Origin: an uncultured Candidatus Saccharibacteria bacterium
Lineage (GTDB): Bacteria; Patescibacteriota; Minisyncoccia; Minisyncoccales; GWA2-38-27
Direction: 5' to 3'
Length of the DNA: 64,000 bases
Assembly (NCBI GenBank): GCA_964387825.1
Contig: CAYLWZ010000003.1
Coordinates: forward strand, 2,267 to 66,266
The translations under genes were made by a program, and so were the position numbers. Positions 7,092 to 54,084 of the stretch are shown here, piece by piece (position 1 is the first letter of the stretch; every line of letters begins with the position of its first letter). The notes under the pieces are model-generated. The model did not search any database and was not told the origin of the DNA. It was given only the letters and a program-made list of their open reading frames with translations.

Positions 7092-7198
7092 TTAACTATA
7101 TTAGCACTTAAAGCAAAATTGCCAACAAAGAGCGCGCCATTCTTGTTTTATACTCTCCAATGAGATAAAATAAATAAAACTAAAGAAAAAATTTTATT

Positions 7199-28467: not shown

Positions 28468-28479
28468 TTTTCTTAGAAA

Positions 28480-31260: not shown

Positions 31261-31266
31261 ATTTGC

Positions 31267-31300
31267 AATTCGTATGTTCGTGCTAATTCGTAAATTCGTA
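31267..31300. repeat. Octamer tandem array (aattcgta-like units) between two pilin-operon genes
   Basis: aattcgta tgttcgtg ct aattcgta aattcgta read directly. Confidence 0.65.
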
Positions 31301-31303
31301 AGG

Positions 31304-38059: not shown

Positions 38060-38788
38060 TTATTGTGATTTCCAAATTAGAAGAAAAAAGGATTTAATCA
38101 GGTTAATTACCGCCTTGTTTTCAATAAGCAGATAGTTTTTTGAGGAAGGCAGAATAATGATTTTATCACAAATAACAATAGTTCCTTTAAAGCGAAAAGA
38201 GCTCTGGTCAAAGAGTTTTCTTTGCAAATAAGCGAATGAAGATTTATTTTTTGTCAGAGAAAGTTCCTTGACCTGGATTTTCCCTAATCTTTTTTTGATT
38301 TTTTGGTATGTTTTTTCTCTTTGTATGCTTGGCCAAATTTTCTCGTCGGTTGTTAAGATATAAATTTTTCTGGAAAGAGTAGTTGAAAAATCATCAAGTA
38401 AAACTTCTAAGCCAGTTTTGTTTTGGTAAACTTTTATTCCTTTTTCATCGTTTAAATAATATTTAGTTCTCAAAACGGCGATAATGCGAATAAACTCTCT
38501 TTCTCTCTCTTCCAATTCTTTCTTCCGCCTTTTTAAAATTCCCAAAAGATAATCCGGCGACTGGGCGGTGAAGTACTTTTTGCCTTTTTCTTTTGTTTGG
38601 CTAATCAATTCTTTTTTTTCCAGACCCTTGATAGTCCCATAAGCGGTTGGTCGGCTAATCTGGGCTTTTTTAGCGATATTCTGAACCGAAGTATAGCCCA
38701 ATTCAAGGGCAGCCAAATAAACCCGCGCTTCTTTCTCGGTCAACCCCAATTTTCTTAATTCTAAAGGCAAAGTTGCCGTATTTTTCAT
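38060..38788 (-). CDS. TrmB-family transcriptional regulator
   Basis: N-terminal winged HTH LGLTEKEARVYLAALELGYTSVQNIAKKAQISRPTAYGTIKGLEKKELI is typical of TrmB. Confidence 0.75.
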   Translation of the reverse strand: MKNTATLPLELRKLGLTEKEARVYLAALELGYTSVQNIAKKAQISRPTAYGTIKGLEKKELISQTKEKGKKYFTAQSPDYLLGILKRRKKELEEREREFIRIIAVLRTKYYLNDEKGIKVYQNKTGLEVLLDDFSTTLSRKIYILTTDEKIWPSIQREKTYQKIKKRLGKIQVKELSLTKNKSSFAYLQRKLFDQSSFRFKGTIVICDKIIILPSSKNYLLIENKAVINLIKSFFLLIWKSQ

Positions 38789-38823: not shown

Positions 38824-38895
38824 GGAAAAATAGGGTCAGCTCTGTTTTTTCTTAGAAAAAACAGTTGGAGAAAATAGAGCTGACCCTATTTTTCC
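38824..38895. repeat. Palindromic repeat family C (ggaaaaatagggtcagctct ... agagctgaccctatttttcc)
   Basis: 20-bp perfect arms with an inner hairpin ctgtttttt-ctta-gaaaaaacag. Abuts the stop codon of the 38895 gene. The left half recurs at 41395-41425. Confidence 0.75.
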
Positions 38896-41361: not shown

Positions 41362-41394
41362 GAAATTTGCTCCAGAGACAGAAAGTAAAAATAT

Positions 41395-41504
41395 AAAAAT
41401 AGGGTCAGCTCTGTTTTTTCTTAGCTAAAAATGGTGTCAGATCTATTTTTTCTAGCGAGGCAATAATCAAACCAGTAAGGAAAAATAGACCTGACACCAT
41501 TTTT
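41395..41504. repeat. Composite repeat: half-copy of family C plus complete hairpin of family D (aaaaatggtgtcagatctattttt ... aaaaatagacctgacaccattttt)
   Basis: 41395-41425 is identical to the left arm plus inner half-hairpin of 38824. 24-bp arms with one mismatch at 41427-41450 / 41481-41504. Confidence 0.7.
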
Positions 41505-41580
41505 CCTCTTAATTCGGGCTCATTTTGCGTTGGAATCAAGTTTCATTCGGGGGTCTTCTTGTATTGTACAAGACTTTAAT

Positions 41581-41616: not shown

Positions 41617-41841
41617 ATGGCAAGGCAATTTACAGCAAATTATAAGAAAAGCGGAAAATGGTTTTTGGGATGGGTAGAAGAGATTCCAGGGGTCAATACT
41701 CAAGGAAGAACTCTTAGAGAGACAAAACAAAACCTTAAAGAGGCTCTTTTGCTAATCCTTGAGACGAATAGAATTATTAGCAAGGGAGAAATTGCCAAAG
41801 GAAAGATTATTCGGGAACCGCTTTCAATTTCTGTAAAATGA
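41617..41841 (+). CDS. hicB: HicB-family antitoxin
   Basis: FTANYKKSGKWFLGWVEEIPGVNTQGRTLRETKQNLKEALLLILE is the typical HicB/UPF0150 N-terminal fold sequence. ATGA overlap with hicA. Confidence 0.75.
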   Translation: MARQFTANYKKSGKWFLGWVEEIPGVNTQGRTLRETKQNLKEALLLILETNRIISKGEIAKGKIIREPLSISVK

Positions 41842-42032
41842 AGCGGAAAAACTTAATTAAACACATTATTAAAAATAGATGTATTTTTATTAGGGAAGGC
41901 GCGAGACATAGCGTCTTTTTTAATTCTCAAACGAGGCGGAGTTCTACTGTTCCTCGGCATAATGTAATTGATAATTTTTTAGCAAGGAAAATTTGCCAAG
42001 ATCTTGGCATAGAATTACCTTCTAAAAAGTAA
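41838..42032 (+). CDS. hicA: HicA-family mRNA interferase toxin
   Basis: ..CIFIREGARHSVFFNSQTRRSSTVPRHNVIDNFLARKICQDLGI matches the HicA pattern (G.H......g....vP.H.ei...l...I.k.lgi). Confidence 0.75.
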   Translation: MKRKNLIKHIIKNRCIFIREGARHSVFFNSQTRRSSTVPRHNVIDNFLARKICQDLGIELPSKK

Positions 42033-42112: not shown

Positions 42113-42466
42113 ATGACTCAAAAACAAATCACTATTAGAGAAATTCAAAAATGGGAAAGGAATTTCTGTAAGAAGAAAGGCATTACTTTTAATAAAAACG
42201 AGCAAATGAGGATAGCTTTATTAAAACTAATGGAAGAAGTGGGAGAAACGGCCAAAGCTGTTTTGGAGAAGAAATGGGACGAGGTTTTGGCGGAAGTCGC
42301 TGATGTTATAGTTTTTGCTTCCAAGGTGGCGAATATCACAGAAGACAATTATACTAAAGATAAATTAGAGAATGTTATAGTCCGTAAGATGAATTATTCC
42401 GAAAGGAGGAACTATGACGCGAAAATAAGAAAATTTGACAAACCAAAGAACTCGGAATTTAAATAA
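42113..42466 (+). CDS. MazG-like nucleotide pyrophosphohydrolase (second paralogue)
   Basis: LMEEVGETAKAV and LAEVADVIVFASKVANI motifs. Confidence 0.6.
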   Translation: MTQKQITIREIQKWERNFCKKKGITFNKNEQMRIALLKLMEEVGETAKAVLEKKWDEVLAEVADVIVFASKVANITEDNYTKDKLENVIVRKMNYSERRNYDAKIRKFDKPKNSEFK

Positions 42467-42585
42467 CAGAAAAATTTCCAGATAACTAATAATTGTTTTT
42501 ACGGTTGTATTTTACGTCGAACGATTATTTTTTTAAGGACACAATAAATGCCGATCAAGGGAATATATTATTAATAAATAAAAAT

Positions 42586-43605
42586 ATGAAATTATCCGAT
42601 CAAAAATTAAAAGTCGGGGTTGTAGGTCTTGGCCATCAATCTCTGGAAGACCATATTCCGGCTATCAAAGACTCTCCAGACGTTGAGCTATTTGGAGTAG
42701 TGGAACCAGAAAGAGATAAATTAAGTCTTTTTTTAAAAGAAAATAAAAAAGTTAAAGGATATACTAGTTTTGATAAATTAATAAAAAATCAAAAGTTAGA
42801 TTTTGTTATAATCGCTCTTCCCCATCATCTCTATTATGAAATCATTAAAAAAGCGATTAAAAATAAAATCCATATTTTAAAAGAGAAACCTTTTGCTATC
42901 TCCCTAAGACAGGCTAAAGAATTAGAAGAAATGGCTCGAAAAAACAAGGTTCAAATTATGGTCACCCTACAGCGGAGATTCAATCCAATCTATTCAACTT
43001 TTTTTCAACTTATTGATAAAATTGGAAAACCATTTTTTGTTGAAGCCAAATATACATTCTTCACTGATAAATCTCACGAAGGATGGCGTGGCAAGAAAGA
43101 ATTAGCCGGCGGAGGATGTTTAATTGACATGGGGTACCATATTATTGATCTTTTGATGTGGTATTTTGGTCTTCCAGACGAGATATTTGCTGAGATGTCC
43201 TGTTGGGCAAAAGAAGGCGCTGTATATGATGCTGAAGACACGACAGAGGTGATATTTAGGTATTCAAGGAAAAAAATCTGGGGATCCCTTCTTGTTTCAA
43301 GGGTGATTCCCCCAAAGCAAGAGTATATCAACGTATTTGGCACTAGAGGGATTATTCATCTTGAGCGGGGAAGAATTGAACGCCTTTCTCCTTCGGGAGA
43401 ATTACAAGAATCCCTCCAAAGGAAACACTCTTGGCCTTCTGCGGCTCAAGATCAATTAGAATATTTCATAAAAGTAATTCGTGGAGAGAAAGAAAACATT
43501 AATAATCCCGAATTTCATTTTCGTCATCTGGCTTTTATTGAGGCGGCTTACGAATCAACTAAATTACATCGATATGTTAATCCCAAAAAATTACTTAATT
43601 TATGA
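42586..43605 (+). CDS. Gfo/Idh/MocA-family NAD(P)-dependent sugar oxidoreductase
   Basis: Start moved to MKLSDQKLKVGVVGLGHQS (Rossmann GxGxxG). EKP motif (ILKEKPFA). The listed upstream extension lacks similarity to this family. Confidence 0.8.
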   Translation: MKLSDQKLKVGVVGLGHQSLEDHIPAIKDSPDVELFGVVEPERDKLSLFLKENKKVKGYTSFDKLIKNQKLDFVIIALPHHLYYEIIKKAIKNKIHILKEKPFAISLRQAKELEEMARKNKVQIMVTLQRRFNPIYSTFFQLIDKIGKPFFVEAKYTFFTDKSHEGWRGKKELAGGGCLIDMGYHIIDLLMWYFGLPDEIFAEMSCWAKEGAVYDAEDTTEVIFRYSRKKIWGSLLVSRVIPPKQEYINVFGTRGIIHLERGRIERLSPSGELQESLQRKHSWPSAAQDQLEYFIKVIRGEKENINNPEFHFRHLAFIEAAYESTKLHRYVNPKKLLNL

Positions 43606-44870
43606 AAAAACAAAAATCTAAATTAGCTATTTTAGGTGGGTTAAAAACTATTATTCAAAAAGAAGCACATTTTATGTGGCCCCCAATCACTAAACAGATA
43701 GAAAAAATAGTGATCCAACAACTTCATCAAAGTATTTCTATTTATGACCGTAGTGGGATTTTTAAAGAATTTGAAGATAGTTTTGCAGAATATCATAAAA
43801 AAAGATATGCTCTTTTGTGTAGTTCTGGGACGCTAGCTATTCATTCAATGTTTATTGCGGCTGGATTCAAACAAGGAGACGAAGTAATTTGTCCTGCCTA
43901 TACTTTTTTCGCCACAGTCACTCCTCTTTTGTTTACTGGAGCTAAGCCAATATTATGCGACATTGATGAAAACGGGAATATTGACCCAGAAGAAATTAAG
44001 AGAAAAATTACTCCGAAAACAAAAGGAGTAATTATCACTCATATGTGGGGAGTTCCTTGCCAAATGGATGAAATTGTAAAAATATGTAAAAAAAACAAAT
44101 TATTTTTATTAGAGGACTGTTCTCATGCCCATGGAGCAAAATATAAGGGAAAAGTCATTGGCTCTTTCGGCGATCTATCGGCTTGGAGTATCCAGGGAGC
44201 AAAAAATGTTACTGGCGGAGAAGGAGGTATTTTACTAACTAGTAATAAAGAGTTCTATTATCGAGCCTTACTTTTAGGACACTATAATAAACGCTGCAAA
44301 CAAGAAATTCCTAAAAATCATCCCTTTTATAAATATGCAGTTACGGGAATGGGATTAAAATATCGAGCACATCCTTTATCCGTTACAATAGCATATGAAA
44401 TTTTTAAAAATTTAGAAAAATATTTAGAAATAAAGAGATTATTTGCAAAGAAGATAATAAACGAACTTAAAAATCTTCCAGGGATCTCCCTACCTTCATC
44501 ATTTTTTGATTCTAAAATTAAACCTTCTTGGTATGCTTTTGTCTTTCAGTATAAAAAAGAAAAGCTCAAAAATCTTCCTGTTGAGAAATTTTTTGAGGCC
44601 TTGCAATCCGAAGGACTGGAAGAAATAGATAGGCCATGCTCTACTTGTCCATTAAATCTTTTACCTCTTTTTCAGACTCCTGAAAAGTTATTCCCTATTT
44701 ATAAAAAATATCCATTCTCTTATCGGCCGGGAGATTTTCCAAGAGCAGAAAAATTTTACCATAACGCTATTAAATTGCCTGTTTGGGGGCAAAAAGGGAA
44801 TTTGAGACTTGTAAAATTATATATTCAGGGAATAAAAAAAGTAATTAAAAATTTTACCGACCTTCTATGA
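43602..44870 (+). CDS. DegT/DnrJ/EryC1/StrS-family PLP-dependent sugar aminotransferase
   Basis: Family layout: SSGTLAIHSMFIAAG, DEVICPAYTFFATV, LLEDCSHAHGAKYKG, candidate PLP-Lys region SIQGAKNVTGGEGG. ATGA overlap with the oxidoreductase gene. Confidence 0.8.
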   Translation: MKKQKSKLAILGGLKTIIQKEAHFMWPPITKQIEKIVIQQLHQSISIYDRSGIFKEFEDSFAEYHKKRYALLCSSGTLAIHSMFIAAGFKQGDEVICPAYTFFATVTPLLFTGAKPILCDIDENGNIDPEEIKRKITPKTKGVIITHMWGVPCQMDEIVKICKKNKLFLLEDCSHAHGAKYKGKVIGSFGDLSAWSIQGAKNVTGGEGGILLTSNKEFYYRALLLGHYNKRCKQEIPKNHPFYKYAVTGMGLKYRAHPLSVTIAYEIFKNLEKYLEIKRLFAKKIINELKNLPGISLPSSFFDSKIKPSWYAFVFQYKKEKLKNLPVEKFFEALQSEGLEEIDRPCSTCPLNLLPLFQTPEKLFPIYKKYPFSYRPGDFPRAEKFYHNAIKLPVWGQKGNLRLVKLYIQGIKKVIKNFTDLL

Positions 44871-45313
44871 ATAAAAAAATAATCCAAAGAGTAGTTTTGG
44901 CAGGGGTTATCTTTAAAGATAATAAGGTTTTAATTTTACAAAGAAATAAAAGTGAAAAAGTTTTTCCTAATATGTGGGAACTTCCTGGCGGAAAAAGAGA
45001 ATTTTTGGAATCATCAAGGAATTGCTTGGTACGAGAAATAAAAGAAGAAACAGGCCTTGAAAACATAGAGATTATAATGCCTTTTTCTGTTTTTGATTAT
45101 CAAATTGGAAAAGAAGAAGAGATTAAGGATTCTACCCAAATAAACTTTTTAGTTAAGATAAAAGGAATTGAAGAAGTAAAATTAAGTAGCGAACATCAAA
45201 ACCTTGCTTGGATTGAAAGAAAAGAAATTAGCCAACGTAAATTATCAAAAAACACACAAAAAGTTATCCAGATAGCTTTCAAGTTAATCAAAAACTTTAA
45301 CGGGAAAATTTAA
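44867..45313 (+). CDS. NUDIX hydrolase
   Basis: Nudix box GGKREFLESSRNCLVREIKEETGL (GX5EX7REUXEEXGU). Confidence 0.85.
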   Translation: MNKKIIQRVVLAGVIFKDNKVLILQRNKSEKVFPNMWELPGGKREFLESSRNCLVREIKEETGLENIEIIMPFSVFDYQIGKEEEIKDSTQINFLVKIKGIEEVKLSSEHQNLAWIERKEISQRKLSKNTQKVIQIAFKLIKNFNGKI

Positions 45314-45345: not shown

Positions 45346-45494
45346 GAAAAAATAAAGTGGCCGATAAAATTAAAAGTAGCCACTTTTTATTTTTGTCAGC
45401 AGTTGCTTTACAAGAGCGTAATGTGGGATAATCGCTTAGTTGAATTCAAATTAAGCGATTTTTTGTTGTTTTTTGGGATTAGGGATAACTTTTA
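45346..45494 (+). repeat. Copy A of a ~125-150-nt non-coding module (promoter-like element overlapping a terminator-like hairpin)
   Basis: Shares tttttatttttgtcagcagttgctttacaagagcgtaatgtgggataatcgctt.gttg..ttcaaattaagcgattttttgttgttttttg with 48429-48556. TTGCTT-18 nt-GATAAT with TG extension. Hairpin aatcgctta/taagcgatt plus T-run. Confidence 0.7.
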
Positions 45495-45583
45495 TTTGAC
45501 AAAATTTCTAAAACATATTAAAAAGAAAATAGATATTTGACAATTAAATAATCCTAAAAAAGAAAAGAAAGGAGGTGAGAGAA

Positions 45584-46702
45584 ATGAAAGAAGATATTAA
45601 ACATTATCTTGAAAAAAGCGAAGATAGTCATTGGTTTTCTGTACAAATCAAGCCCGTAGGGAGTATGTGTAATTTGAGGTGTAGATATTGTTATGCAAAA
45701 CCCTATCCATATTCAAAAGAGAAAGTAATGTCAAAAAAAGTACTTGAGCGTGTTGTTCAACAGTGTTTACAAGATTCTTTTTACCCAACCTTTAGTTGGC
45801 ATGGAGGAGAGCCGACCCTTGCGGGATACGATTTTTTCCAATACGCTATGGAATTAATGGAAGAGTATAAATACTCTGACCAAAAGGTAAGAAATTTAAT
45901 TCAAACTAATGCCACAAAAATTACGCCAGGATTAGCTAAATTGTTTAGGCAATATAATTTTGGAGTAAGTGTTAGTTTGGATGGCCCAGAACATGTACAC
46001 GGAATTAATCGAATACTAATAGATGGCGAAAACTCATTCTCTGAGGTTATGCAAGGAATCAAAATTCTTCGAGAATTTGGAGTCGACCCTTCTGTTATCT
46101 GTACTGTTTCCAAAGAAACACTACCTTTCGCGGCAGAAACCTTTAATTTTCTGGTTTCGCAAGGATTTAAAAGAATAAAATATAGTCCAGTATTTGATTC
46201 GGCAAAAGATGAATTTAGCATCACAAACGACGAGTGGTTCGAGTATTTAAAAACAGTCTTTTATCAATGGTTTGAGATCGGAGATCCAGCAATTCAAGTG
46301 CGTGATCTAGACGAAGTGATTGTTTGGCTATCAGAAAAAACGTTGAACCTTTGCTCGGTTGACAGAACCTGTTTACATTGGGTTTCAATTAATCCTACTG
46401 GAGAGATTTATCCATGCGAATACCTAAAGGAGAGGTATTATTACGGGAATATCACTCAAATGGAACTTAGTGATGTTTTTTATGCTTCTGCATTCCAGGA
46501 GTTTAAGAAAGTTTATGAAACTATTCCTTTGAAATGTCAACGATGTGAATTTTTTAAGTTATGTGGTAATGGTTGTCCAGCAACAAGAATAAGAGATGGG
46601 AAGATTTCATCAAATGGCATTTACGCTTTTTGCGAGGAAAGACAATCTTTGTTCTGTGAAATTAAAAAAGTGTTTAACGCTACACTGAAAGGAGGTGATT
46701 AA
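45584..46702 (+). CDS. Radical SAM enzyme with C-terminal SPASM domain (anSME/peptide-maturase family)
   Basis: ATG at 45584 with GGAGG 8 nt upstream. CX3CX2C cluster CNLRCRYC, GGEPTL, QTNATK, SLDGP; SPASM-type Cys motifs CEYL...CQRCEFFKLCGNGC. Confidence 0.85.
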   Translation: MKEDIKHYLEKSEDSHWFSVQIKPVGSMCNLRCRYCYAKPYPYSKEKVMSKKVLERVVQQCLQDSFYPTFSWHGGEPTLAGYDFFQYAMELMEEYKYSDQKVRNLIQTNATKITPGLAKLFRQYNFGVSVSLDGPEHVHGINRILIDGENSFSEVMQGIKILREFGVDPSVICTVSKETLPFAAETFNFLVSQGFKRIKYSPVFDSAKDEFSITNDEWFEYLKTVFYQWFEIGDPAIQVRDLDEVIVWLSEKTLNLCSVDRTCLHWVSINPTGEIYPCEYLKERYYYGNITQMELSDVFYASAFQEFKKVYETIPLKCQRCEFFKLCGNGCPATRIRDGKISSNGIYAFCEERQSLFCEIKKVFNATLKGGD

Positions 46703-46703
46703 G

Positions 46704-46814
46704 ATGAAGAAGCGGGAATTTATCCTGACGGTACTCGCCAAAGTGGCGAAGGAAGCAGAAAACATGAAGCCAGATGACTGGCGAGGACTTCTGCACAATT
46801 GGATAAAGTGTTGA
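46704..46814 (+). CDS. Unannotated 36-aa peptide, candidate RiPP precursor
   Basis: ATG 1 nt after the rSAM stop, preceded by GGAGGTG (46691-46697). MKKREFILTVLAKVAKEAENMKPDDWRGLLHNWIKC. Locally GC-rich. Followed by a hairpin. Confidence 0.55.
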   Translation: MKKREFILTVLAKVAKEAENMKPDDWRGLLHNWIKC

Positions 46815-46828
46815 TTAATACCTTTATC

Positions 46829-46865
46829 GTTGCGGGAAATTTCTTATTGGAATATTTCCCGCAAC
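46829..46865 (+). terminator. 12-bp hairpin after the peptide ORF (weak T-run)
   Basis: gttgcgggaaat / atttcccgcaac with a 13-nt loop; no strong U-tract, so terminator function is uncertain. Confidence 0.4.
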
Positions 46866-46972
46866 ACTACTTAATGCAATGCGATAATAAATGTTCAGTA
46901 TTGGATTAAAATTTGGTTATATTTTTCTAATCTGTTAAACTAAAGATAGCTAAAATAGGAAGGAGATCAAAA

Positions 46973-47734
46973 ATGAAAAAAGAAACTAACTTACAAAAAT
47001 CTTGGGATGAAATGTCGCTATATTATCAGAAAAAATATAGCGACTCTTTAATGTTTTACGAAAAGACAATCCATCTAAAGCTTTTCGGGAAGATAAAGGA
47101 CAAGAAACTTCTTGATCTTGGTTGCGGTGGAGGGCAAACTTCTATTTTTTTTGCCGAACAAGGAGCTATAGTCACGGGAGTTGATTTTTCGAAAAGACAA
47201 ATAGATTTTGCGAGAATTTTAGCAAAGAAAAAAAGAACAAACAAGGTTTTATTTCAACAAGGCAATATGGAAAACCTATCTATGTTTAAGGATTGTAGTT
47301 TCGATTTGGTTAACTCCAGCCACACTATTCATTACGTTAAAAACATACAGAGATGTTTTAACGAGATCTTCCGAGTACTTAAACCGAAAGGAAAATTTGT
47401 TTTTAGCGTTTCACATCCTTTAAATCATATCGTTGAAAAAGAAAATGATCAATTTGTAATAAAAAGAAGTTATTTCCAGAAAGGGAGGTATAGGTGGGAT
47501 TGGGAATATCCGGCAGAAGGACTAAAATATTCTATGTATCTGTTTATAAGAAAAGTAGATGATTATTTTATTGCTTTGAGAAAATCTAGTTTTATTATTG
47601 AAGACCTGTTAGAACCCAAAACTTATTTGGACAAGAACAGCCCATGGCGTGAGCAGAATAGTTCAAAGGAAGAAATGATTCCTGGGGCATTAATTTTCGG
47701 GGCTAAAAAACCCTCCCAAAAGGCAAAAACCTAA
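46973..47734 (+). CDS. Class I SAM-dependent methyltransferase
   Basis: Motif I LLDLGCGGGQTSIFFA, acidic post-I VTGVDFS, motif II/III region FDLVNSSHTIHY / LKPKGKFVFSV. Confidence 0.85.
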   Translation: MKKETNLQKSWDEMSLYYQKKYSDSLMFYEKTIHLKLFGKIKDKKLLDLGCGGGQTSIFFAEQGAIVTGVDFSKRQIDFARILAKKKRTNKVLFQQGNMENLSMFKDCSFDLVNSSHTIHYVKNIQRCFNEIFRVLKPKGKFVFSVSHPLNHIVEKENDQFVIKRSYFQKGRYRWDWEYPAEGLKYSMYLFIRKVDDYFIALRKSSFIIEDLLEPKTYLDKNSPWREQNSSKEEMIPGALIFGAKKPSQKAKT

Positions 47735-47737
47735 CCT

Positions 47738-47778
47738 AAAGAGCAGTTATCAAAATAAGATTCCTGCTCTTTTTTATT
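47738..47778 (+). terminator. Intrinsic terminator of the methyltransferase gene
   Basis: aaagagcag ... ctgctcttt followed by tttttatttc. Confidence 0.65.
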
Positions 47779-47870
47779 TCTTTATCTGAAAAAAATAAAA
47801 AAATTATTAAGTTATGAACTATTATATATTACTTTATTTTTTGGTAGGCGTATTGTAAAAAGTAGGAAAA

Positions 47871-47924
47871 GTAGGGACGTTTCCGACTTTTCTCACTTAA
47901 TTTAAAAGTCGAAAACGTCCCTAC
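47871..47924. repeat. Palindromic repeat family B (gtagggacgtttccgactttt ... aaaagtcgaaaacgtccctac)
   Basis: 21-bp arms with one mismatch. Flanked by further (a)gtagg/cctac(t) units. Second copy at 54022-54084. Confidence 0.7.
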
Positions 47925-48037
47925 TTTCTCTACTTTCCTATTTTCCGTCCCTACTTTTCTGCCGGTATATTTGCAATGCCAGTGATTGTAGAATTCTATA
48001 AGGAAGGAGTCCAGAATGTATCTGGCATTATGTAAAG

Positions 48038-48067
48038 AAGGGCATTCTTTAAAATCAGAATGCCCTT
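48038..48067 (-). terminator. Hairpin immediately downstream of the minus-strand Zn-ribbon gene
   Basis: aagggcattct / agaatgccctt, 11-bp stem, 2 nt from the stop codon at 48069. Confidence 0.55.
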
Positions 48068-48068
48068 T

Positions 48069-48317
48069 TTATCCTTTAATATACACTTTTCCTTGAATTA
48101 TTTTGTTGGCTGGCCGATTGTGATACAAGGCTTCTCTTGCAAAAGTTTGTTTGCATTTCGGACACTTTAAGTCTCCTGCCGTGTTATCTTTAATAATTTT
48201 GTCTTTGTAGCATTTTACCAAATGTCCTATTCCTTCTTTTCTGTATTTGTAGAGTAAAGTTCCACAATTGGCACAAAAAACTTTTATCGTGTATGCTCGG
48301 ATTTTTTTTCTTGCCAT
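48069..48317 (-). CDS. Small zinc-ribbon protein (hypothetical)
   Basis: Two CxxC pairs (CANCG, CPKCK). Good SD (aaggaggt) upstream. No family recognised. Confidence 0.5.
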   Translation of the reverse strand: MARKKIRAYTIKVFCANCGTLLYKYRKEGIGHLVKCYKDKIIKDNTAGDLKCPKCKQTFAREALYHNRPANKIIQGKVYIKG

Positions 48318-48428
48318 ATAAATTACCTCCTTATGGTTTTTAAATGTATTTTTTATAGAGCCTATGAAATTACGCTCTATCTGTCAACTATTTAGCCAGA
48401 CGCACTTTTTAAGCAAAACCGGACTAAA

Positions 48429-48556
48429 GAAAAATAAAGTGGTCACTTTTTATTTTTGTCAGCAGTTGCTTTACAAGAGCGTAATGTGGGATAATCGCTT
48501 GGTTGGGTTCAAATTAAGCGATTTTTTGTTGTTTTTTGAGCTTGTGGATAACTTTT
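48429..48556 (+). repeat. Copy B of the non-coding promoter/hairpin module
   Basis: See 45346-45494. The listed ORF 48364..48594 is just this repeat translated. Confidence 0.7.
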
Positions 48557-48640
48557 GTCGGAAAACACTTGACAAATGTTTTAGAGTAGAGTAACCTATG
48601 AACAGAGCGTGGAAAAGTAAAAAATAGATAACGCCAAAAT

Positions 48641-48745
48641 ATGGACAATAAAATTTTACTAATTATTGCCATAATAACGATACCAATATCATTAACCTTT
48701 TTGGTTTGGTTAATCAGCAGATATTACCGGAGGAAACAAAAGTAG
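48641..48745 (+). CDS. Possible 34-aa single-TM peptide
   Basis: MDNKILLIIAIITIPISLTFLVWLISRYYRRKQK: hydrophobic helix plus basic tail. Weak ribosome-binding site. Its 3' two-thirds lie inside the 155-bp direct repeat. Confidence 0.3.
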   Translation: MDNKILLIIAIITIPISLTFLVWLISRYYRRKQK

Positions 48746-48840
48746 TTTGTCAGAAATTGGCAAGTCGAATAAAGAGGATTGTATCTAATCTTTTTTCTTC
48801 GGTTCGGCAATTAAAAAAACCGAATGGTTCTTTAAAAATA
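48686..48840 (+). repeat. Left copy of ~155-bp direct repeat flanking the GNAT/CYTH cassette
   Basis: Near-identical to 50399-50551 (by eye, one substitution and one 1-nt indel). Contains hairpin ttcggtt..aaccgaa. Confidence 0.8.
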
Positions 48841-48909
48841 AAAAACTTTTAAGTATAAATGGTGTCGGATCTGAATTTTTTTAAAGACGTTGAATTATAA
48901 GATAATAAA

Positions 48910-49884
48910 ATGATTAAAATATCTACAATAAAAGTAAGTAATATCTGGGAGAACGATAAAAGAGTAAAAGAAATAAGAGAGAAACTTTTGCCTAAAATAA
49001 AAAAATGTAAAGAGTGGTTTGATTCTCAAGACTTAGAGCATCAAATACTTTTTAGATTAACGACTTATCATAATTGGAAACCTAAATTAGAAGAAGTTTT
49101 TCAGGAACAAAAACATATTATATTAGAAAGAATGAAAAATGCGAGAGTGAATCCTAAAAAACTATTCTGTTTTGGGAGAGAACGAACAGGTGCTTGGCAA
49201 ATGCAATGGGGAAAAGATAAGAATAATTTATATTGTATTAATAATGATAATCGCAAAAGAGAAATCTTTTTTAGAGAAATTACATTAGAAGATGAAAAAG
49301 AAGCAGCAAGAAGCATTATTAATGATTATCATTATATTCACTGGTCAAGATGTAATAAAGAGAAAGGAATGATATTCGGGTTTTTTGTTAAAGGGCATAA
49401 ATTACCATTCGCAATAGAAGAAATAGAACCTTGCGACATTTCAAGAAACTATAAAAAAGCTATATTGATGATGGCTGATATCAATTATCATACTACTTGC
49501 GAATTAACAAGATTTTATTCAGTCCCTAATACTCCTAAAAATATGATAAGTTTATTAGATAAAATGGTTGGAAGGGAGTTAAAATATAGAGGATATGAAT
49601 GGATGATGACAGCGATGATGCCTGCTTTTGCTAAAACTAAGAGTTCAACGATTGCTGGGGGGATAGATATTCCTTTATTTGCCAAAGAATTGAAACTTGA
49701 ATTCTTTAAAAGAAAAGATAATTATTATGAAGTTTGTGTCGATAGAAAAAAAGAAAAATTAAATAAAAAAACAATTGGTTCCGTTTGGAAATTATCTCCT
49801 GTTATTGAGATGATTAAATCTTTAAAACCAGAATTAAAACCAAACTTAAAAAAGAATATGTATTACTATGTTGAAAAGAATTGA
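48910..49884 (+). CDS. Hypothetical protein with C-terminal GNAT-fold, Mom-like acyltransferase motifs
   Basis: Motif order IINDYHYIHW .. MIFGFFVKG .. CELTRFYSVPNTPKNMISLLDKMVGRELK .. EWMMTAMMP resembles HY....fG.....G....EL.R......pkN..S......l....lvSyaD of Mom-like/GNAT enzymes. Motif-level inference only. Confidence 0.35.
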   Translation: MIKISTIKVSNIWENDKRVKEIREKLLPKIKKCKEWFDSQDLEHQILFRLTTYHNWKPKLEEVFQEQKHIILERMKNARVNPKKLFCFGRERTGAWQMQWGKDKNNLYCINNDNRKREIFFREITLEDEKEAARSIINDYHYIHWSRCNKEKGMIFGFFVKGHKLPFAIEEIEPCDISRNYKKAILMMADINYHTTCELTRFYSVPNTPKNMISLLDKMVGRELKYRGYEWMMTAMMPAFAKTKSSTIAGGIDIPLFAKELKLEFFKRKDNYYEVCVDRKKEKLNKKTIGSVWKLSPVIEMIKSLKPELKPNLKKNMYYYVEKN

Positions 49885-50389
49885 AACAGAGTATAAGTTT
49901 AGGATTAAAAATAAGGATACTTTTTTCAAAAAGATAGAGAAATTTTATATAAAAAATGCTTATTTAGAAAGTTGTAATTTTGTAATAGATGAAATATATG
50001 GAAAGAAAAGAAATCGTTATAAAGTTAGGAAAAGAACATATTATGATTTATTTCATTTTGCAATTAATACTGAAATAGAGAGAACAAAAAATATAAATGG
50101 ATTTTCAAAAGAAGAAAAAGCGTTAGAAGAAATACCTAAAGGATTTAAATTAGAAAATTCCTACAATAAAGTAAGAAATGTTTTTAGTGCCGATGGTTGT
50201 TCTATATCAATAGATTTTTATATCATAGGAGTATTTTGCGAAATAGAAGGAGAATTGAAGGACATAAAAAAAGTTGCTAAAAAATTAGGATTTAATCCAA
50301 AAGATAATATAAAAGAAGGGATAGATGAAATCTTCTGTAAAGAAATGAAAAAGAAAAATGCTGTACCTCCAGTACATTGGGGATTTTAA
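49868..50389 (+). CDS. CYTH-domain protein (CyaB-like adenylyl cyclase / triphosphate tunnel metalloenzyme family)
   Basis: N-terminal EXEXK signature (RIETEYKFRI), basic RKRTYY, C-terminal ISIDFYIIGVFCEIEGE (..D...g.G.f.EiE). Overlaps the upstream gene by 17 nt. Confidence 0.65.
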   Translation: MLKRIETEYKFRIKNKDTFFKKIEKFYIKNAYLESCNFVIDEIYGKKRNRYKVRKRTYYDLFHFAINTEIERTKNINGFSKEEKALEEIPKGFKLENSYNKVRNVFSADGCSISIDFYIIGVFCEIEGELKDIKKVAKKLGFNPKDNIKEGIDEIFCKEMKKKNAVPPVHWGF

Positions 50390-50398
50390 TTATTACAG

Positions 50399-50551
50399 AT
50401 ATCATTAACCTTTTTGGTTTGGTTAATCAGCAGATATTACCGGAGAAAACAAAAGTAGTTTGTCAGAAATTGGCAAGTCGAATAAAGAGGATTGTATCTA
50501 ATCTTTTTTCTTCGGTTCGGCAATTAAAAAACCGAATGGTTCTTTAAAAAT
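50399..50551 (+). repeat. Right copy of ~155-bp direct repeat
   Basis: See 48686-48840. The duplicated peptide tail is in frame with the CYTH stop codon. Confidence 0.8.
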
Positions 50552-50589
50552 AATAAATAAACTTTTAATTTAATAAGGGGGTGAGAAAG

Positions 50590-51714
50590 ATGGAAGAGAG
50601 AAATTTTGCGTTTTTAGCACATAGAGTGGAATCTTGGAATTGGCTTTTAAACTTTGGAATGTTTAATCATTTGCATCGTAGACCGAAATTGCATTGGTTG
50701 TGGATTTGGATGGCTCCTATTTATTGGACTGTTTCGGCTGTTTCCTTGTTTTTAAGGAAAGGACATGAAACTGTTGATAGTTTCCAGTTTTTTGGGATGA
50801 AAAGCCAGACTATTCTCCTTCGTAATTACGCTTGGCATTTTCTTTTTTGGAGAGCCAGAAAGAGTATAAGAAAACGTATTCTGAAGGCGGTGCTTTCTGC
50901 GCAAAAGGAAAATCAAGTCATTGGCCTAGGCGCCTTGATAAAAGCGGAATGGCTTACAAAAGGAGGACGATGGATTGTGGATAAACTTGGAAATAGTCTT
51001 CATGCGGTTCTTGTCCACGGAGACACTTTGACGGCAGCGACCTGTCTCAAGCGGATTGATATGCTGACTAAAAAATATGAGATCAGTTCTCCTATATTTA
51101 TTACCGGGGCTACTTCAAAGATAGGACGGGCAATTGTTCTTACCTTGGCCAAAAACAGGATATTAGTAAAAATGTACACGAGCAGTAAAAAGAGGTTTTT
51201 GGCGATAAAAAGAGAAGCCGGCGAATTCGACAAGTATATAATCATGTCTGTTTCTTTGGACGAAGGAAAGGACTGTCAAATCTGGCTTACTGGTAAGTCT
51301 CGGCCTGCCGGAAGAAAGTTGCTTCAAGCAATTCCCAAAAATGTTATTGTGGTAAATTTCTCTGTGCCGAATCCCTTGGGTGAAAACAACGAATGTCCTC
51401 GGAAAGACCTGTTGGTAGTAGATGGAGGATTATTGGCATATGATCCTGCTGTTACGGATTTACATTTTACAATGCGACTCAAGCCTGGTCTTACATACGC
51501 CTGTCATGCGGCCACAGCTGTTCACGCCCATAAGAGGTGGACACATCATGAGGTTGATAATGTTAATTTAAAAATGCTACGGCCAACCTGGGAGGCGGCT
51601 CAGGGGCTTGGTTTCTTCTTGCCCGCTATTCCAGAAATGGATTTATCTCAAGCAAGAGATCAAAGGCCATTTTGGAAAAAGTTGGCAGATATGCCAGCAT
51701 CAATTGTTCTTTAA
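50590..51714 (+). CDS. NAD(P)-dependent oxidoreductase resembling long-chain acyl-ACP reductase (AAR-like)
   Basis: FAFLAHRVESW.., VIGLGALIKAEW, HGDTLTAATCL, Rossmann FITGATSKIGRAIV, VVDGG and ACHAATAVHA line up in order with my recollection of cyanobacterial AAR (FGLIGHLTSLE, ALGGFTSII, TGNTHTAYV, VVGATGDIGSAV, LIDGGYP, ACFAEAML). Confidence 0.5.
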   Translation: MEERNFAFLAHRVESWNWLLNFGMFNHLHRRPKLHWLWIWMAPIYWTVSAVSLFLRKGHETVDSFQFFGMKSQTILLRNYAWHFLFWRARKSIRKRILKAVLSAQKENQVIGLGALIKAEWLTKGGRWIVDKLGNSLHAVLVHGDTLTAATCLKRIDMLTKKYEISSPIFITGATSKIGRAIVLTLAKNRILVKMYTSSKKRFLAIKREAGEFDKYIIMSVSLDEGKDCQIWLTGKSRPAGRKLLQAIPKNVIVVNFSVPNPLGENNECPRKDLLVVDGGLLAYDPAVTDLHFTMRLKPGLTYACHAATAVHAHKRWTHHEVDNVNLKMLRPTWEAAQGLGFFLPAIPEMDLSQARDQRPFWKKLADMPASIVL

Positions 51715-51719
51715 AATGT

Positions 51720-51758
51720 CCCCTGTAAATGTTTTAATAATTTACAGGGGCTTTTTTC
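51720..51758 (+). terminator. Strong intrinsic terminator
   Basis: cccctgtaaat / atttacagggg 11-bp stem followed by cttttttcg. Confidence 0.8.
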
Positions 51759-51806
51759 GTCTTGAATTTACTTTGACAGTTTTTATTGGAATGATAAAAT
51801 AATAAT

Positions 51807-53969: not shown

Positions 53970-54021
53970 TTTGACATAAAGTTAATTTTTGAATAAAATA
54001 AAAATAGAAAAAGTAGAAAAA

Positions 54022-54084
54022 GTAGGGACGTTTCCGACTTTTAAATTAAAAAGAGGAAGCGGAAAAAGTCAAAAACGTCCTTAC
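54022..54084. repeat. Palindromic repeat family B, second copy, between the kinase and response-regulator genes
   Basis: gtagggacgtttccgactttt ... aaaagtcaaaaacgtccttac. Confidence 0.65.

What the first reader, a model, noticed from the sequence alone, without database searches (positions are those of the whole stretch)
45346..45494. Duplicated ~125-nt non-coding module (promoter-like element overlapping a terminator-like hairpin) placed in front of both accessory gene sets
Seen:
- 45346-45494 and 48429-48556 share a long block: tttttatttttgtcagcagTTGCTTtacaagagcgtaatgTGgGATAATcgctt.gttg..ttcaaattaagcgattttttgttgttttttg.
- The block contains a TTGCTT-18 nt-GATAAT promoter with an extended -10 TG.
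- Overlapping the -10 box is a hairpin (aatcgctta...taagcgatt) followed by a T-run. The substitutions between the copies within the hairpin (A to G; aa to gg) keep pairing possible as G-U.
- Copy A precedes the rSAM/peptide/methyltransferase genes. Copy B precedes the small peptide and the GNAT/CYTH cassette.

Inference: transcripts arriving from upstream would include the full hairpin and terminate. Transcripts starting at the internal promoter would lack its left arm and read on. That would make this a terminator-promoter insulator module. Alternatively the block encodes a small RNA or is a recombination site shared by mobile cassettes.
Basis: partly seen in the sequence, partly recalled or inferred. 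Interest (0 to 1): 0.55.

Follow-up and report, generated by a model that had tools for sequence, protein, structure and literature searches.

The report
Repeated cassette-junction control module
The duplicated ~115-150-nt block is real: it is two copies of an intergenic control region (conserved 20-nt motif, terminator-like hairpin, ordinary promoter) that candidate-phyla-radiation bacteria normally keep once beside a TrmB-type regulator gene, and that sits in front of each gene set in a strain-variable island of accessory genes.

Summary
Bases 45381-45493 and 48444-48556 are 93.8% identical over 113 nt, and these are the only two copies in the window. The block belongs to a family found in several Patescibacteria lineages. 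In relatives with a simple locus there is one copy, lying between a divergent trmB-family regulator gene and a small-peptide/CER1-like/histidine-kinase operon. Its parts are a conserved 20-nt motif (TGTCRG..TTTACAA), a hairpin plus T-run, a TGTGGATAA box, TTTTGTCGG, and a TTGACA-type promoter (P2). In the window and in two other lineages, extra gene cassettes are flanked by direct repeats of this module. Copy B is a mosaic: its 5' half is 96% identical to copy A, and its 3' half is orthologous to the peptide promoter of relatives. The duplication therefore looks like a product of cassette insertion by recombination inside the module. The hairpin is kept through compensatory changes. The "terminator then promoter" reading is broadly right, but the overlap mechanism is unsupported. 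No recombinase, Rfam family, phage or plasmid match was found. Interest is moderate.

The parts
45354..45394 (+). T1: hairpin (AAAGTGGC..17 nt..GCCACTTT) plus T-run that ends the GFO/DegT/NUDIX operon. Its T-run runs into the module.
   Evidence: Sequence and fold. A homologous hairpin follows TyrRS in L028.
45394..45413 (+). Copy A, Block 1: the conserved 20-nt motif TGTCAGCAGTTGCTTTACAA.
   Evidence: Exact pattern match. These are the most conserved columns in the 16-sequence family alignment.
45403..45432 (+).
   Evidence: Sequence. Conserved in L044 only. Occurs at the chance rate. Not called by the consensus scan.
45430..45477 (+). Copy A, 12-bp hairpin (45430-45460) followed by the T-run TTTTTTGTTGTTTTTTG. 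Terminator-like.
   Evidence: Compensatory changes across relatives.
45480..45524 (+). Copy A downstream half: degenerate box TAGGGATAA (45480-88); P2 -35 TTGACA (45496-45501); weak -10 TAAAAA (45519-24). Precedes the rSAM gene, whose ATG is at 45584.
   Evidence: Sequence. Homologous position to the consensus P2 of relatives. The -10 lacks the final T, so activity is uncertain.
45584..48317 (.). The cassette bracketed by the two copies: rSAM/SPASM (45584-46702 +), 36-aa peptide ORF (46705-46815 +), methyltransferase (46973-47734 +), palindromic element (47859-47936), Zn-ribbon protein (48069-48317 -).
   Evidence: Pfam, ORFs, repeats.
48429..48456 (+). Copy B, remnant of T1 (AAAGTGGTCACTTT plus T-run) lacking 20 nt of the copy-A hairpin. 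The gene upstream is divergent, so the remnant has no operon to terminate.
   Evidence: Alignment of the copies and sequence.
48457..48476 (+). Copy B, Block 1 (identical to copy A).
48493..48538 (+). Copy B, hairpin (48493-48523) plus T-run.
48543..48597 (+). Copy B downstream half: TGTGGATAA box (48543-51); TTTTGTCGG (48553-61); palindrome TTGTCG-N9-TGACAA (48555-75); P2 -35 TTGACA (48569-74); -10 TAACCT (48592-97).
   Evidence: It is 78-81% identical to the peptide/CER1 promoter of L036 and L029, and only 57% to copy A.
48641..48745 (+). 34-aa membrane-peptide ORF (MDNKILLIIAIITIPISLTFLVWLISRYYRRKQK), first gene after copy B. It is orthologous to the first ORF after the single module in L029 and L036.
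38060..38788 (-). trmB-family regulator gene at the edge of the island. It is the candidate regulator of the module.
   Evidence: tblastn and Pfam TrmB at 2e-14. In L022, L024, L026, L028, L029 and L036 the module lies in the divergent intergenic region directly beside this gene; in L044 it lies about 370 nt away, beyond a 43-aa ORF.
50590..51714 (+). CER1-like/dehydrogenase-like gene, followed by the histidine kinase (51807-53969) and response regulator (54096-54500). This is the ancestral downstream unit of the module.
   Evidence: Pfam and synteny in L029 and L036.

Best explanation
The block is a copy of a two-part intergenic control module that is conserved in this branch of Patescibacteria.

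Ancestral place. The module is the divergent control region between a trmB-family regulator gene and a small-peptide / CER1-like / histidine-kinase / response-regulator operon.

Upstream half. A 20-nt conserved motif (TGTCRG-N3-TTRCTTTACAA) is probably a protein-binding site. About 18 nt further on lies an A-tract/hairpin/T-tract that acts as an intrinsic terminator.

Downstream half. A TGTGGATAA box and TTTTGTCRG lead into a sigma-70-type promoter, P2. Its -35 (TTGACAAA) is embedded in a palindrome, TTGTCR-N8/9-TGACAA, which looks like an operator.

Spread. In some lineages, accessory cassettes have accumulated between trmB and the operon, each preceded by a copy of the module. In the window, the rSAM/peptide/methyltransferase/Zn-ribbon segment was inserted by recombination within the module, either by single-crossover integration of a circular intermediate or by an equivalent duplicative insertion. 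This left the upstream half (plus the preceding terminator T1) duplicated at 96% identity. Each copy keeps its own, older-diverged promoter half.

Functional consequence. Transcription coming from the left is stopped at T1 and at the module hairpin. It restarts at P2 under the same, probably TrmB-like, regulator.

Shown: the repeat; family membership; single-copy relatives; the mosaic structure of copy B; hairpin conservation; enrichment of the promoter type.
Inferred: termination; P2 activity; the identity of the regulator; the recombination route.
For: 1. Family. Homologous modules with the same order of blocks occur 4-5 times per locus in L008-L017. They occur once or twice in L028, L029, L036 and L044. 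A blind DNA-pattern scan of GTDB species genomes found them in L022, L024 and L026. An HMM built from 16 copies finds exactly the two window copies, at 75 and 48 bits.

2. Ancestral context. In all three blind-scan hits the module lies next to a divergent trmB gene. L029 and L036 read trmB | module | 33/34-aa peptide | leader | CER1-like | HK | RR, with P2 = TTGACA-16-TATAAT. The window has the same trmB, peptide, CER1-like, HK and RR genes, with 13 kb of cassettes in between.

3. Insertion signature, seen independently three times. The first case is the window's own pair of copies. In the second, L009 differs from L008 by a 2.3-kb rSAM+GNAT cassette bracketed by about 200-nt module repeats. 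In the third, L028 differs from L029, which encodes an identical TrmB protein, by a 3.4-kb insert bracketed by module copies sharing an identical stretch of about 45 nt.

4. Mosaic copy B. Its 5' half is 96% identical to copy A and 65% to L036. Its 3' half is 57% identical to copy A and 78-81% to L036 and L029. Copy B also carries a decayed T1 remnant with nothing upstream to terminate.

5. Hairpin. It is present with a T-run in all members of the W, L044, L029, L036 and L028 types. Pair 3 shows U-A, U.G, C-G and C.A; pair 9 shows A-U, G.U and G-C. Alifold returns only this helix.

6. Promoter type. TTGACA occurs 54 times against 24 expected. TTGACA-N16-18-TAnnnT occurs 11 times against 1.8 expected (0 of 200 simulations reach 11), and P2 of copy B is one of these.

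7. No integrase or transposase in the 64-kb window. RuvB and RuvC are present.
Against: - P2 is weak in the window itself. Copy A's -10 is TAAAAA, with no final T. Copy B's is TAACCT. Neither passes the consensus scan. P2 is assigned mainly by homology.
- In the single-copy context (L029, L036) the hairpin sits between two divergent promoters, where there is no obvious transcript to terminate. Its role as a terminator is therefore not self-evident. As DNA, the inverted repeat could equally be an operator.
- Block 1 has no demonstrated ligand. The TrmB link rests on synteny only, and in the window and in L008 trmB is kilobases away from the copies.
- The other duplications that flank cassettes (D1 in the window; a 53-nt repeat in L008) are not in the module but in leaders. 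The module may therefore have no special role in recombination.
- No empty-site variant was found within the same species.
- There are no transcript data.
Confidence: 0.6

Rival explanations
1. An extended -10 promoter (TTGCTT-18-TGnGATAAT) overlaps the left arm of the hairpin. Incoming transcripts contain the whole hairpin and terminate. Transcripts from the internal promoter start inside the left arm (about 45439-45441) and read through.
For: The geometry is correct in both copies. The same arrangement (TTGCTT-18-TGgCATAAT, running into AATCGC..) is kept in the nearest relative L044 despite six changes in the spacer. Copy A's alternative promoter P2 has a poor -10, so P1 could be what drives the rSAM genes.
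Against: The -35 is 3/6. The pattern occurs at the chance rate in this AT-rich window: one independent hit in the module, one in a coding region, 0.8 expected. No equivalent -10 exists at the homologous place in the L029, L036, L028 or L008-type modules. The GATAAT doubles as the A-tract that mirrors the T-run, as is usual for bidirectional terminators. Conservation of 11 of 12 hexamer positions between the window and L044 is unremarkable at 82% overall identity.
Confidence: 0.15
2. The module, or its 20-nt motifs TGTCRG-N6/7-TTKACA (which occur at both ends), is a dedicated site-specific recombination site. It would be analogous to integron attC or VCR repeats, used by an unidentified recombinase to capture and excise cassettes.
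For: Cassette arrays have one module per junction. Homology between L008 and L017 begins exactly at TTTTGTC of Block 1. In L028 the shared core ends at TTTTGTCGG. In L024 trmB itself is bracketed by direct repeats of Block 1. Cassette contents (toxin-antitoxin pairs, GNATs, NUDIX, MazG, methyltransferases) resemble those of chromosomal integrons.
Against: No tyrosine or serine recombinase or transposase in the 64-kb window or in the loci examined. Crossover positions differ between events: inside the module in the window and L028, near the ribosome-binding site in L009, and in leaders for D1 and the L008 53-nt repeat. The repeats are long stretches of homology, not short cores. No R''/R' (RYYYAAC/GTTRRRY) architecture and no whole-site imperfect palindrome. 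Each cassette has its own promoter.
Confidence: 0.12
3. The block encodes a small RNA or cis-acting RNA leader. Block 1 plus the hairpin would be the RNA, ending at the T-run.
For: A conserved motif is followed at a near-constant 17-19 nt by a conserved terminator hairpin. Copy A folds better than shuffles, z = -2.9. In some members a -35-like TTGTCA and a -10-like hexamer could start a very short transcript.
Against: No Rfam family: nothing at gathering thresholds, and the best sub-threshold hit is 26.9 bits against a cut-off of 59. Alifold finds no conserved pairing outside the hairpin. Distant members (L022, L024, L026) keep Block 1 but have no hairpin. There is no conserved promoter upstream of Block 1. 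Copy B folds no better than shuffles, z = -1.2.
Confidence: 0.08
4. A neutral by-product, or an assembly artefact. The duplication would be a recent, functionless scar, or a chimeric join of two strain variants.
For: Only two copies, 94% identical, and no intraspecific variant seen. Short-k-mer assemblies break in the repeat.
Against: Three JGI assemblies from different samples cross copy A, and one contig (L001) crosses both copies at 100% identity. The module is conserved across Patescibacterial lineages with block-wise conservation and compensatory stem changes, so the sequence itself is under selection.
Confidence: 0.05

Closest known systems
Intergenic 'terminator then promoter' junctions between bacterial transcription units (intrinsic terminator followed by a sigma-70 promoter)
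   Same: A GC-based stem plus T-run, followed within 30-50 nt by a TTGACA-type promoter. This arrangement insulates neighbouring units. The A-tract/T-tract symmetry is like that of bidirectional terminators.
   Different: Here the junction is a conserved, portable sequence family carrying extra conserved motifs (Block 1, TGTGGATAA, TTTTGTCRG). It is reused in front of unrelated cassettes. Its ancestral place is between divergent promoters, where a terminator has no obvious substrate.
Integron cassette arrays with attC sites (e.g. the ~125-nt VCR repeats of Vibrio chromosomal integrons)
   Same: A co-oriented array of small accessory cassettes (toxin-antitoxin pairs, acetyltransferases, NUDIX/MazG, methyltransferases). 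They are separated by related ~100-130-nt repeats with conserved ends and a variable centre. Cassette content differs between strains.
   Different: No integrase. No attC architecture: the two ends are direct, not inverted, repeats of each other, and the hairpin is local. Each cassette has its own promoter. Gains are flanked by long direct repeats of local sequence. Crossover points vary.
Promoter- or terminator-bearing intergenic repeats such as Neisseria Correia elements and other MITE/REP-type repeats (recalled from general knowledge, not tested against their sequences)
   Same: Short non-coding repeats placed between genes that can supply promoters and hairpins and so alter expression of the neighbouring gene.
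   Different: No terminal inverted repeats and no short target-site duplication. Very low copy number: 2 in 64 kb, and one exact pattern match in a complete 689-kb genome. Confined to one island next to trmB.
Divergent regulator/target control regions of winged-helix regulators (TrmB/MarR type), with palindromic operators overlapping the target -35
   Same: The regulator gene is transcribed divergently from the module. A palindrome, TTGTCR-N8-TGACAA, overlaps the -35. A second related site lies about 89 nt upstream (113 nt in the window).
   Different: Binding is untested. The motif does not resemble published TrmB sites that I can recall (e.g. TATCAC-N5-GTGATA). In the window and in L008 the copies are kilobases away from trmB.
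DnaA box (TTATCCACA; reverse complement TGTGGATAA)
   Same: Copy B and eight other family members carry TGTGGATAA, or a one-mismatch variant of it, at a fixed place just upstream of TTTTGTCRG.
   Different: A single box, not enriched in the window. It is degenerate in copy A and absent in L044 and in the L008 hairpin-type copies. No evidence that DnaA binds it.

Membership tests
Intrinsic (Rho-independent) terminator | A GC-containing stem, a short loop, and a run of T immediately 3' of the stem | tested here: met
   12-bp stem, 7-nt loop, TTTTTT directly after the stem in both copies. MFE is -13.5 and -13.1 kcal/mol.
Intrinsic (Rho-independent) terminator | Structure rather than sequence is conserved among homologues | tested here: met
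   Pair 3 shows U-A, U.G, C-G and C.A; pair 9 shows A-U, G.U and G-C, across 7 sequences. Alifold predicts only this helix. The sample is small, so support is modest.
Intrinsic (Rho-independent) terminator | Transcript 3' ends fall in the T-run | not testable with these tools
   No transcript data are available.
   TTGCTT (3/6), 18 nt, TG-G-GATAAT (5/6) in both copies. Below the threshold of the consensus scan.
   3 hits against 0.8 expected, two of them the duplicate. Conserved in L044 only; absent in L029, L036, L028 and the L008 types.
Sigma-70 promoter (P2, TTGACA type) | Consensus -35 and -10 at 16-18 nt, at a homologous position across the family | tested here: met
   Relatives: L029, L036, L028_5 and L008d have TTGACA-16-TATAAT; L044 has TTGACA-18-TATACT; L024, L026 and L022 are similar. 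The promoter type is enriched in the window, 11 against 1.8. Window copies: the -35 is perfect, but the -10 is weak (TAACCT in copy B, TAAAAA in copy A).
Integron (attC cassette array) | An IntI-type tyrosine recombinase with attI next to the array | tested here: not met
   Pfam scans of 50 ORFs of 64 aa or more, including every predicted ORF of 150 aa or more, across the 64-kb window found no integrase, recombinase or transposase. None appears in the precomputed Pfam lists of L008-L017, L028 or L036.
Integron (attC cassette array) | attC architecture: R''(RYYYAAC)-L''...L'-R'(GTTRRRY), forming a whole-site imperfect palindrome | tested here: not met
   Read directly from the sequence and from the alignment. 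The module's ends are direct repeats of each other (TGTCRG-N6/7-TTKACA). Only a local hairpin is present.
Integron (attC cassette array) | Cassettes lack promoters and depend on a common Pc | tested here: not met
   Each junction carries its own TTGACA-type promoter.
MITE / REP-type dispersed repeat | Terminal inverted repeats, a short target duplication, and many dispersed copies | tested here: not met
   Two copies in 64 kb. One exact pattern match in the complete genome CP179887.1. No terminal inverted repeats in the alignment.
Known RNA families (Rfam 15) | A match at or above the family's gathering score | tested here: not met
   Only a tRNA in the whole window. The best sub-threshold hit on the block is the trpB motif, 26.9 bits against 59.
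TrmB/MarR-type operator | Specific binding of the neighbouring regulator to the palindromic sites | not testable with these tools
   Only synteny is available: the module lies directly beside a divergent trmB in L022, L024, L026, L028, L029 and L036, and about 370 nt from it in L044.
DnaA box | A 9-mer TTATCCACA-type site, usually clustered, bound by DnaA | tested here: inconclusive
   A perfect 9-mer at 48543-48551, conserved in 9 of 16 aligned members. It is single, not enriched (15 against 14.8 at one mismatch or fewer), and binding cannot be tested.

The most novel reading that the evidence does not exclude
Patescibacteria possess a gene-cassette capture system that works like an integron but without an integron integrase. 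In this reading, a portable ~110-nt module does three jobs. It is the expression signal (promoter plus operator). It is the insulator (terminator). It is also the recombination substrate. Any cassette flanked by two modules can loop out as a circle and re-enter at any other module. This builds a strain-variable array anchored next to a TrmB-family regulator, which then controls all captured genes.
Probability: 0.25. Interest if true: 0.75.

Novelty: new variant of a known kind. Interest (0 to 1): 0.5.

Why it matters
Candidate-phyla-radiation bacteria have tiny genomes, few regulators and almost no experimentally defined promoters, operators or terminators.

This module offers a concrete, conserved, testable control region with five named parts: a motif, a hairpin, a box, a palindromic -35 and a -10. 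It also comes with an obvious candidate regulator.

It marks a hotspot between trmB and a two-component system. There, strains of the same species differ by whole cassettes, including radical-SAM peptide-modification genes, toxin-antitoxin pairs and acetyltransferases.

If the module is also the vehicle of cassette exchange, it would show how organisms that lack classical integrons and most mobile-element machinery still shuffle accessory genes.

It would also supply a sequence tag for finding such islands, and their peptide natural-product genes, in metagenomes.

If the module turns out to be only a duplicated promoter region, it still explains why assemblies of these genomes break at this locus.

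Tried and rejected
- An exact 22-mer from the core (GAGCGTAATGTGGGATAATCGC) scanned against GTDB species genomes gave 0 hits. The source species is not there.
- The pattern GATAATCGCTTN{8,20}AAGCGATTTTTT scanned against JGI metagenome contigs gave only two chance hits inside a coding region (L004, L005).
- Rfam, at gathering thresholds and at permissive E-values, gave nothing meaningful.
- blastn against the phage and plasmid collections gave no match.
- Literature searches (Patescibacteria with TrmB and promoter; with integron and cassette; CPR with hypervariable island) found nothing relevant.
- Exact-protein look-ups of the 324-aa protein and of P0121 had no record.
- The NUDIX look-up for an empty-site variant in the same species returned only contigs identical to the window.
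- The closest rSAM homologue with an upstream region (P0123; L045-L047) has a different upstream region. There is no Block 1 upstream, though a Block 1-like motif lies downstream of that cassette. It could not test P1.
- L007 (CER1-like protein 72% identical) has only a very diverged module (TGTGGATAA..CTTGACG-16-TAGAAT) that the HMM does not detect.
- MAFFT misaligned the long and short hairpins, so pairs were tabulated from a hand alignment.
- A second upstream promoter register (TTGTCA-17-GATAAN) is present in some members but not in the window or L044, so it was dropped.
- DnaA regulation through TGTGGATAA was considered. It is left open and not adopted, because the box is single and not enriched.
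Full report
**1. The observation**

blastn of copy A against the window returns 45381-45493 = 48444-48556: 113 nt, 93.8% identical, ungapped, E 2e-44. Nothing else scores above noise. A 43-nt core occurs exactly twice and never in 100 shuffles.

The first 58 nt are identical. Three substitutions fall in the hairpin. The T-run is identical. After it the copies diverge, although similarity continues to TTGACAAA. The repeat finder reports 148 nt at 86%. Upstream, 13 more nt match across a 20-nt indel.

Both hairpins (45430-45460 and 48493-48523) are flagged as terminator-like. They fold at about -13 kcal/mol.

Identical DNA occurs in assemblies of several metagenome samples. L001 crosses both copies, and L048 and L050 cross copy A. 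Short-k-mer Logan contigs stop inside the repeat. The tandem arrangement is therefore very probably real.

Three details need correcting:
- Only one of the three hairpin substitutions is in the stem (A-U to G.U). The other two are in the loop.
- 'GNAT/CYTH' for the 324-aa and 173-aa proteins is not confirmed by Pfam.

**2. Context**

The window comes from a Patescibacteria (CPR) genome. Homologues of the CER1-like protein and of the TrmB-like protein are nearly all from Patescibacteria or Paceibacterota MAGs.

The gene order, by coordinate and strand, is as follows:

| Coordinates | Strand | Feature |
|---|---|---|
| 38060-38788 | - | trmB-family regulator |
| to 41239 | - | four more genes |
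| 41617-42032 | + | HicB/HicA |
| 42113-45313 | + | MazG, GFO/IDH/MocA, DegT, NUDIX |
| 45381-45493 | + | **copy A** |
| 45584-47734 | + | rSAM/SPASM, a 36-aa ORF, methyltransferase |
| 47859-47936 | | palindromic element |
| 48069-48317 | - | Zn-ribbon gene |
| 48444-48556 | + | **copy B** |
| 48641-48745 | + | 34-aa membrane-peptide ORF |
| 48910-50389 | + | 324-aa and 173-aa genes |
| 50590-51714 | + | CER1-like |
| 51807-53969 | + | histidine kinase |
| 54096-54500 | + | response regulator |

A second pair of direct repeats, about 170 nt and about 97% identical (about 48686-48860 and 50399-50572), brackets the 324-aa + 173-aa cassette.

No integrase, recombinase or transposase is encoded in the 64 kb; every predicted ORF of 150 aa or more was scanned. 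dnaA/dnaN, RuvB and RuvC are present.

**3. The block belongs to a family**

Two first scans with exact sequence found nothing useful. The breakthrough came from a radical-SAM homologue, 76% identical (P0128), that lies in loci L008-L017. There, a related ~110-nt sequence precedes each of four or five cassettes: a DUF4258/DUF2283 pair; rSAM+methyltransferase+GNAT; a PemK pair; and variable genes.

That sequence shares several features with the window block:
- TTTTTATTTTTGTCAG..TTGCTTTACAA.
- A hairpin with the same base (AATCGC...GCGATTTTT).
- CTTGTGGATAAC-TTTTGTCGG.
- CTTGACAAA.

A degenerate pattern built from these features was scanned blind over GTDB species genomes. It hit three Patescibacteria: L024, a complete Nealsonbacteria genome; L026, Paceibacterota; and L022, labelled Saccharibacteria. 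In each the module lies in the divergent intergenic region beside a trmB-family gene.

An HMM of 16 copies finds exactly two sites in the window, at 75 and 48 bits.

The alignment defines the blocks:
- Block 1: TGTCRG-N3-(T)TRCTTTRCAA, which has the most invariant columns.
- A variable ~50-nt centre, which in the window's clade holds the hairpin plus T-run.
- TGTGGATAA.
- TTTTGTCRG.
- A promoter, P2, whose -35 (TTGACAAA) is the right arm of a palindrome, TTGTCR-N8/9-TGACAA.

Block 1 and the P2 region resemble each other: both read TGTCRG-N6/7-TTKACA. They lie about 89 nt apart in most members and 113 nt apart in the window.

**4. The ancestral, single-copy state**

Relatives whose TrmB is 76-77% identical show the simple locus. 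L029 and L036/L037 read: trmB | module | 33/34-aa peptide | leader | (46 aa) | CER1-like | HK | RR.

Their peptide (MDSKTLLIIVIVAIP...RHYRRKQK) is the orthologue of the window's 34-aa ORF. Their leader is the orthologue of the window's second repeat, D1.

In these loci P2 is of consensus grade, TTGACA-16-TATAAT. trmB has its own near-leaderless promoter on the other strand (TTGACT-17-TATAAT), just beyond Block 1.

**5. Cassette gains are bracketed by module repeats**

This is seen three times independently.

- **L028 against L029.** The two encode an identical TrmB protein. L028 has 3.4 kb (48-aa ORF + rSAM, TyrRS, a 220-aa gene) inserted between two module copies. The copies share an identical stretch of about 45 nt, from GCGGTTTTTT to TTTTGTCGG.
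- **L009 against L008.** L009 has an extra 2.3-kb rSAM+GNAT cassette bracketed by about 200-nt repeats of the module and 5' UTR.
- **The window.** Copy B's 5' half (Block 1 to T-run) is 96% identical to copy A, 82% to L044 and only 65% to L036. Its 3' half is 57% identical to copy A but 78-81% to the peptide promoter of L036 and L029.

Copy B also carries a decayed remnant of the T1 hairpin that ends the NUDIX operon, although its own upstream neighbour is a divergent gene.

Copy B is therefore a mosaic. It is what a crossover inside the module would leave on the right of an inserted segment. The near-identical 'repeat' is T1 plus the upstream half, and each copy keeps a different, older promoter half.

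Other flanking duplications lie in leaders rather than in the module: D1 in the window and a 53-nt repeat in L008. Crossover positions differ between events. Together with the absence of a recombinase, this favours homology-driven recombination, for example integration of circles looped out between repeats. It argues against a site-specific system, though without excluding one.

**6. Which promoter?**

The genome plainly uses canonical promoters. TTGACA occurs 54 times against 24 expected. TTGACA-N16-18-TAnnnT occurs 11 times against 1.8 expected, and none of 200 simulations reaches 11. Eight of the 11 hits lie immediately upstream of a predicted gene, and P2 of copy B is one of them.

Two of those are the duplicate and one lies in a coding region.

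At the homologous place, L029, L036, L028 and the L008-type modules have no such -10. Only L044, the nearest relative of copy A (82% over this half), keeps TTGCTT-18-TGgCATAAT running into the hairpin. At that overall identity, this is not informative.

The GATAAT also serves as the A-tract that mirrors the T-run, as in the other members (GAAAAT, TAAAAT).

One caution applies.

**7. The hairpin**

All members of the window, L044, L029, L036 and L028 clade have a hairpin with an invariant CGC/GCG core followed by six or more T.

In a hand alignment, pair 3 reads U-A (three sequences), U.G (two), C-G and C.A. Pair 9 reads A-U, G.U and G-C. RNAalifold returns this helix and nothing else. This is modest but real evidence for selection on pairing.

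Distant members (L022, L024, L026) lack the hairpin. In the L008 type, each copy keeps either the hairpin or the TGTGGATAA box, not both.

One observation remains unexplained. In the single-copy loci the hairpin lies between two divergent promoters, where nothing obvious needs terminating. It may block spurious or antisense transcription in this AT-rich DNA. Alternatively, as a DNA palindrome, it may be an operator: the half-sites CGCTT/AAGCG are 5 or 15 nt apart, a difference of one helical turn.

**8. How it most likely works**

The module is a portable junction. Incoming transcription is stopped at T1 and at the module hairpin. Transcription restarts at P2. P2, and perhaps the whole module through Block 1, is under a DNA-binding regulator, for which the neighbouring TrmB-family protein is the obvious candidate.

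Because every cassette carries a copy, the copies also provide homology for gaining, losing and exchanging cassettes.

What is shown: the repeat, the family, the synteny, the mosaic structure, hairpin conservation and promoter-type enrichment. What is inferred: termination, P2 activity, the identity of the regulator and the recombination route. I put 0.6 on this overall reading.

Rival probabilities:
- A dedicated recombination site: 0.12.
- An RNA gene: 0.08.
- A scar or artefact: 0.05.

**9. Comparison with known systems**

The module works like an ordinary terminator-promoter junction with an operator, and the array looks like an integron cassette array.

It is not an integron. The tests found no integrase, no attC architecture, cassettes with their own promoters, and long flanking direct repeats (see the membership rows).

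It is not a MITE/REP element: there are no terminal inverted repeats and only one or two copies. It matches no Rfam family, no phage or plasmid sequence, and nothing I could find in the literature.

I rate it a new variant of a known kind, of moderate interest (0.5). The most novel reading still open is an integrase-independent cassette-capture system built on this module. I give that 0.25 probability, and it would deserve about 0.75 interest if true.

Noticed in passing
window 48686-48860 and 50399-50572: A second pair of direct repeats (~170 nt, ~97% identical) brackets the 324-aa + 173-aa cassette. It duplicates the 3' half of the 34-aa peptide ORF plus the leader of the CER1-like gene. The downstream copy keeps only the truncated ORF end.
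   Followed up: partly
window 47859-47936 and 53999-54049: A palindromic element, AAAGTAGGAAAAGTAGGGACGTTTCCGACTTTT. It occurs as a full 33-nt-arm palindrome between the convergent methyltransferase and Zn-ribbon genes. A single arm with a partial tandem copy lies between the histidine kinase and response regulator genes.
   Followed up: no
window 38826-38890, 41389-41507, 48849-48879: Another family of palindromic intergenic repeats (AAAAATAGGGTCAGCTCTGTTTTTTC... and AAAAATGGTGTCAGATCTATTTTTTC...). They lie next to trmB, in the divergent region before HicB, and upstream of the 324-aa gene.
   Followed up: no
window 45354-45394; L028 4777-4890 (minus strand): The terminator hairpin after NUDIX (AAAGTGGCCGATAAAATTAAAAGTAGCCACTTTTTATTTTT) has a close homologue after the TyrRS gene of another species. 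Cassette ends, as well as cassette starts, therefore share sequence.
   Followed up: partly
window 46705-46815; L008 about 7150-7250: A 36-aa ORF follows the radical-SAM/SPASM gene (MKKREFILTVLAKVAKEAENMKPDDWRGLLHNWIKC). Its C-terminal motif DDWRGLL(H/Y)NWIKC is conserved in the 76%-identical cassette. It is a likely precursor peptide for the rSAM enzyme and the methyltransferase.
   Followed up: no
window 13933-17730 and 27181-33631: A TraG-like P-loop ATPase is interrupted by an intein with a LAGLIDADG domain. Two very large proteins carry T4SS-pilin domains. A further TrwB/TraD-like protein lies at 59970-62447.
   Followed up: no
window 20586-23294: dnaA and dnaN lie about 15-25 kb upstream of the island, so the variable island is near the presumed origin region. 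No cluster of TTATCCACA-type boxes was seen near dnaA at one mismatch or fewer.
   Followed up: partly
L006 (= window 50541-52997): A JGI contig of the same population carries a 16-nt deletion that splits the CER1-like gene into two ORFs. This is a frameshift variant coexisting with the intact allele.
   Followed up: no
L024 3745-3812 and 4782-4850: In the complete Nealsonbacteria genome, the trmB gene itself is bracketed by ~55-nt direct repeats of the Block 1 region.
   Followed up: partly
L045 about 3690-3900, against L046 about 800-950: In another lineage the rSAM-methyltransferase-GNAT cassette is flanked by ~150-nt inverted repeats that include a GC-rich hairpin. This suggests an invertible or otherwise mobile segment. 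A Block 1-like motif follows the GNAT gene.
   Followed up: no
L011 9434-9489, against L008 9434-9489: The module hairpin loop is flipped (GCCCGAAAGGGC against GCCCTTTCGGGC) between otherwise near-identical strains. This is the signature of a palindrome-mediated inversion or template switch.
   Followed up: no
window 48369-48379 and 48478-48487: A 10-nt inverted match (AGAGCGTAAT) links the spacer of the Zn-ribbon gene's promoter and the module core of copy B. It is probably chance (about 0.1 expected).
   Followed up: no
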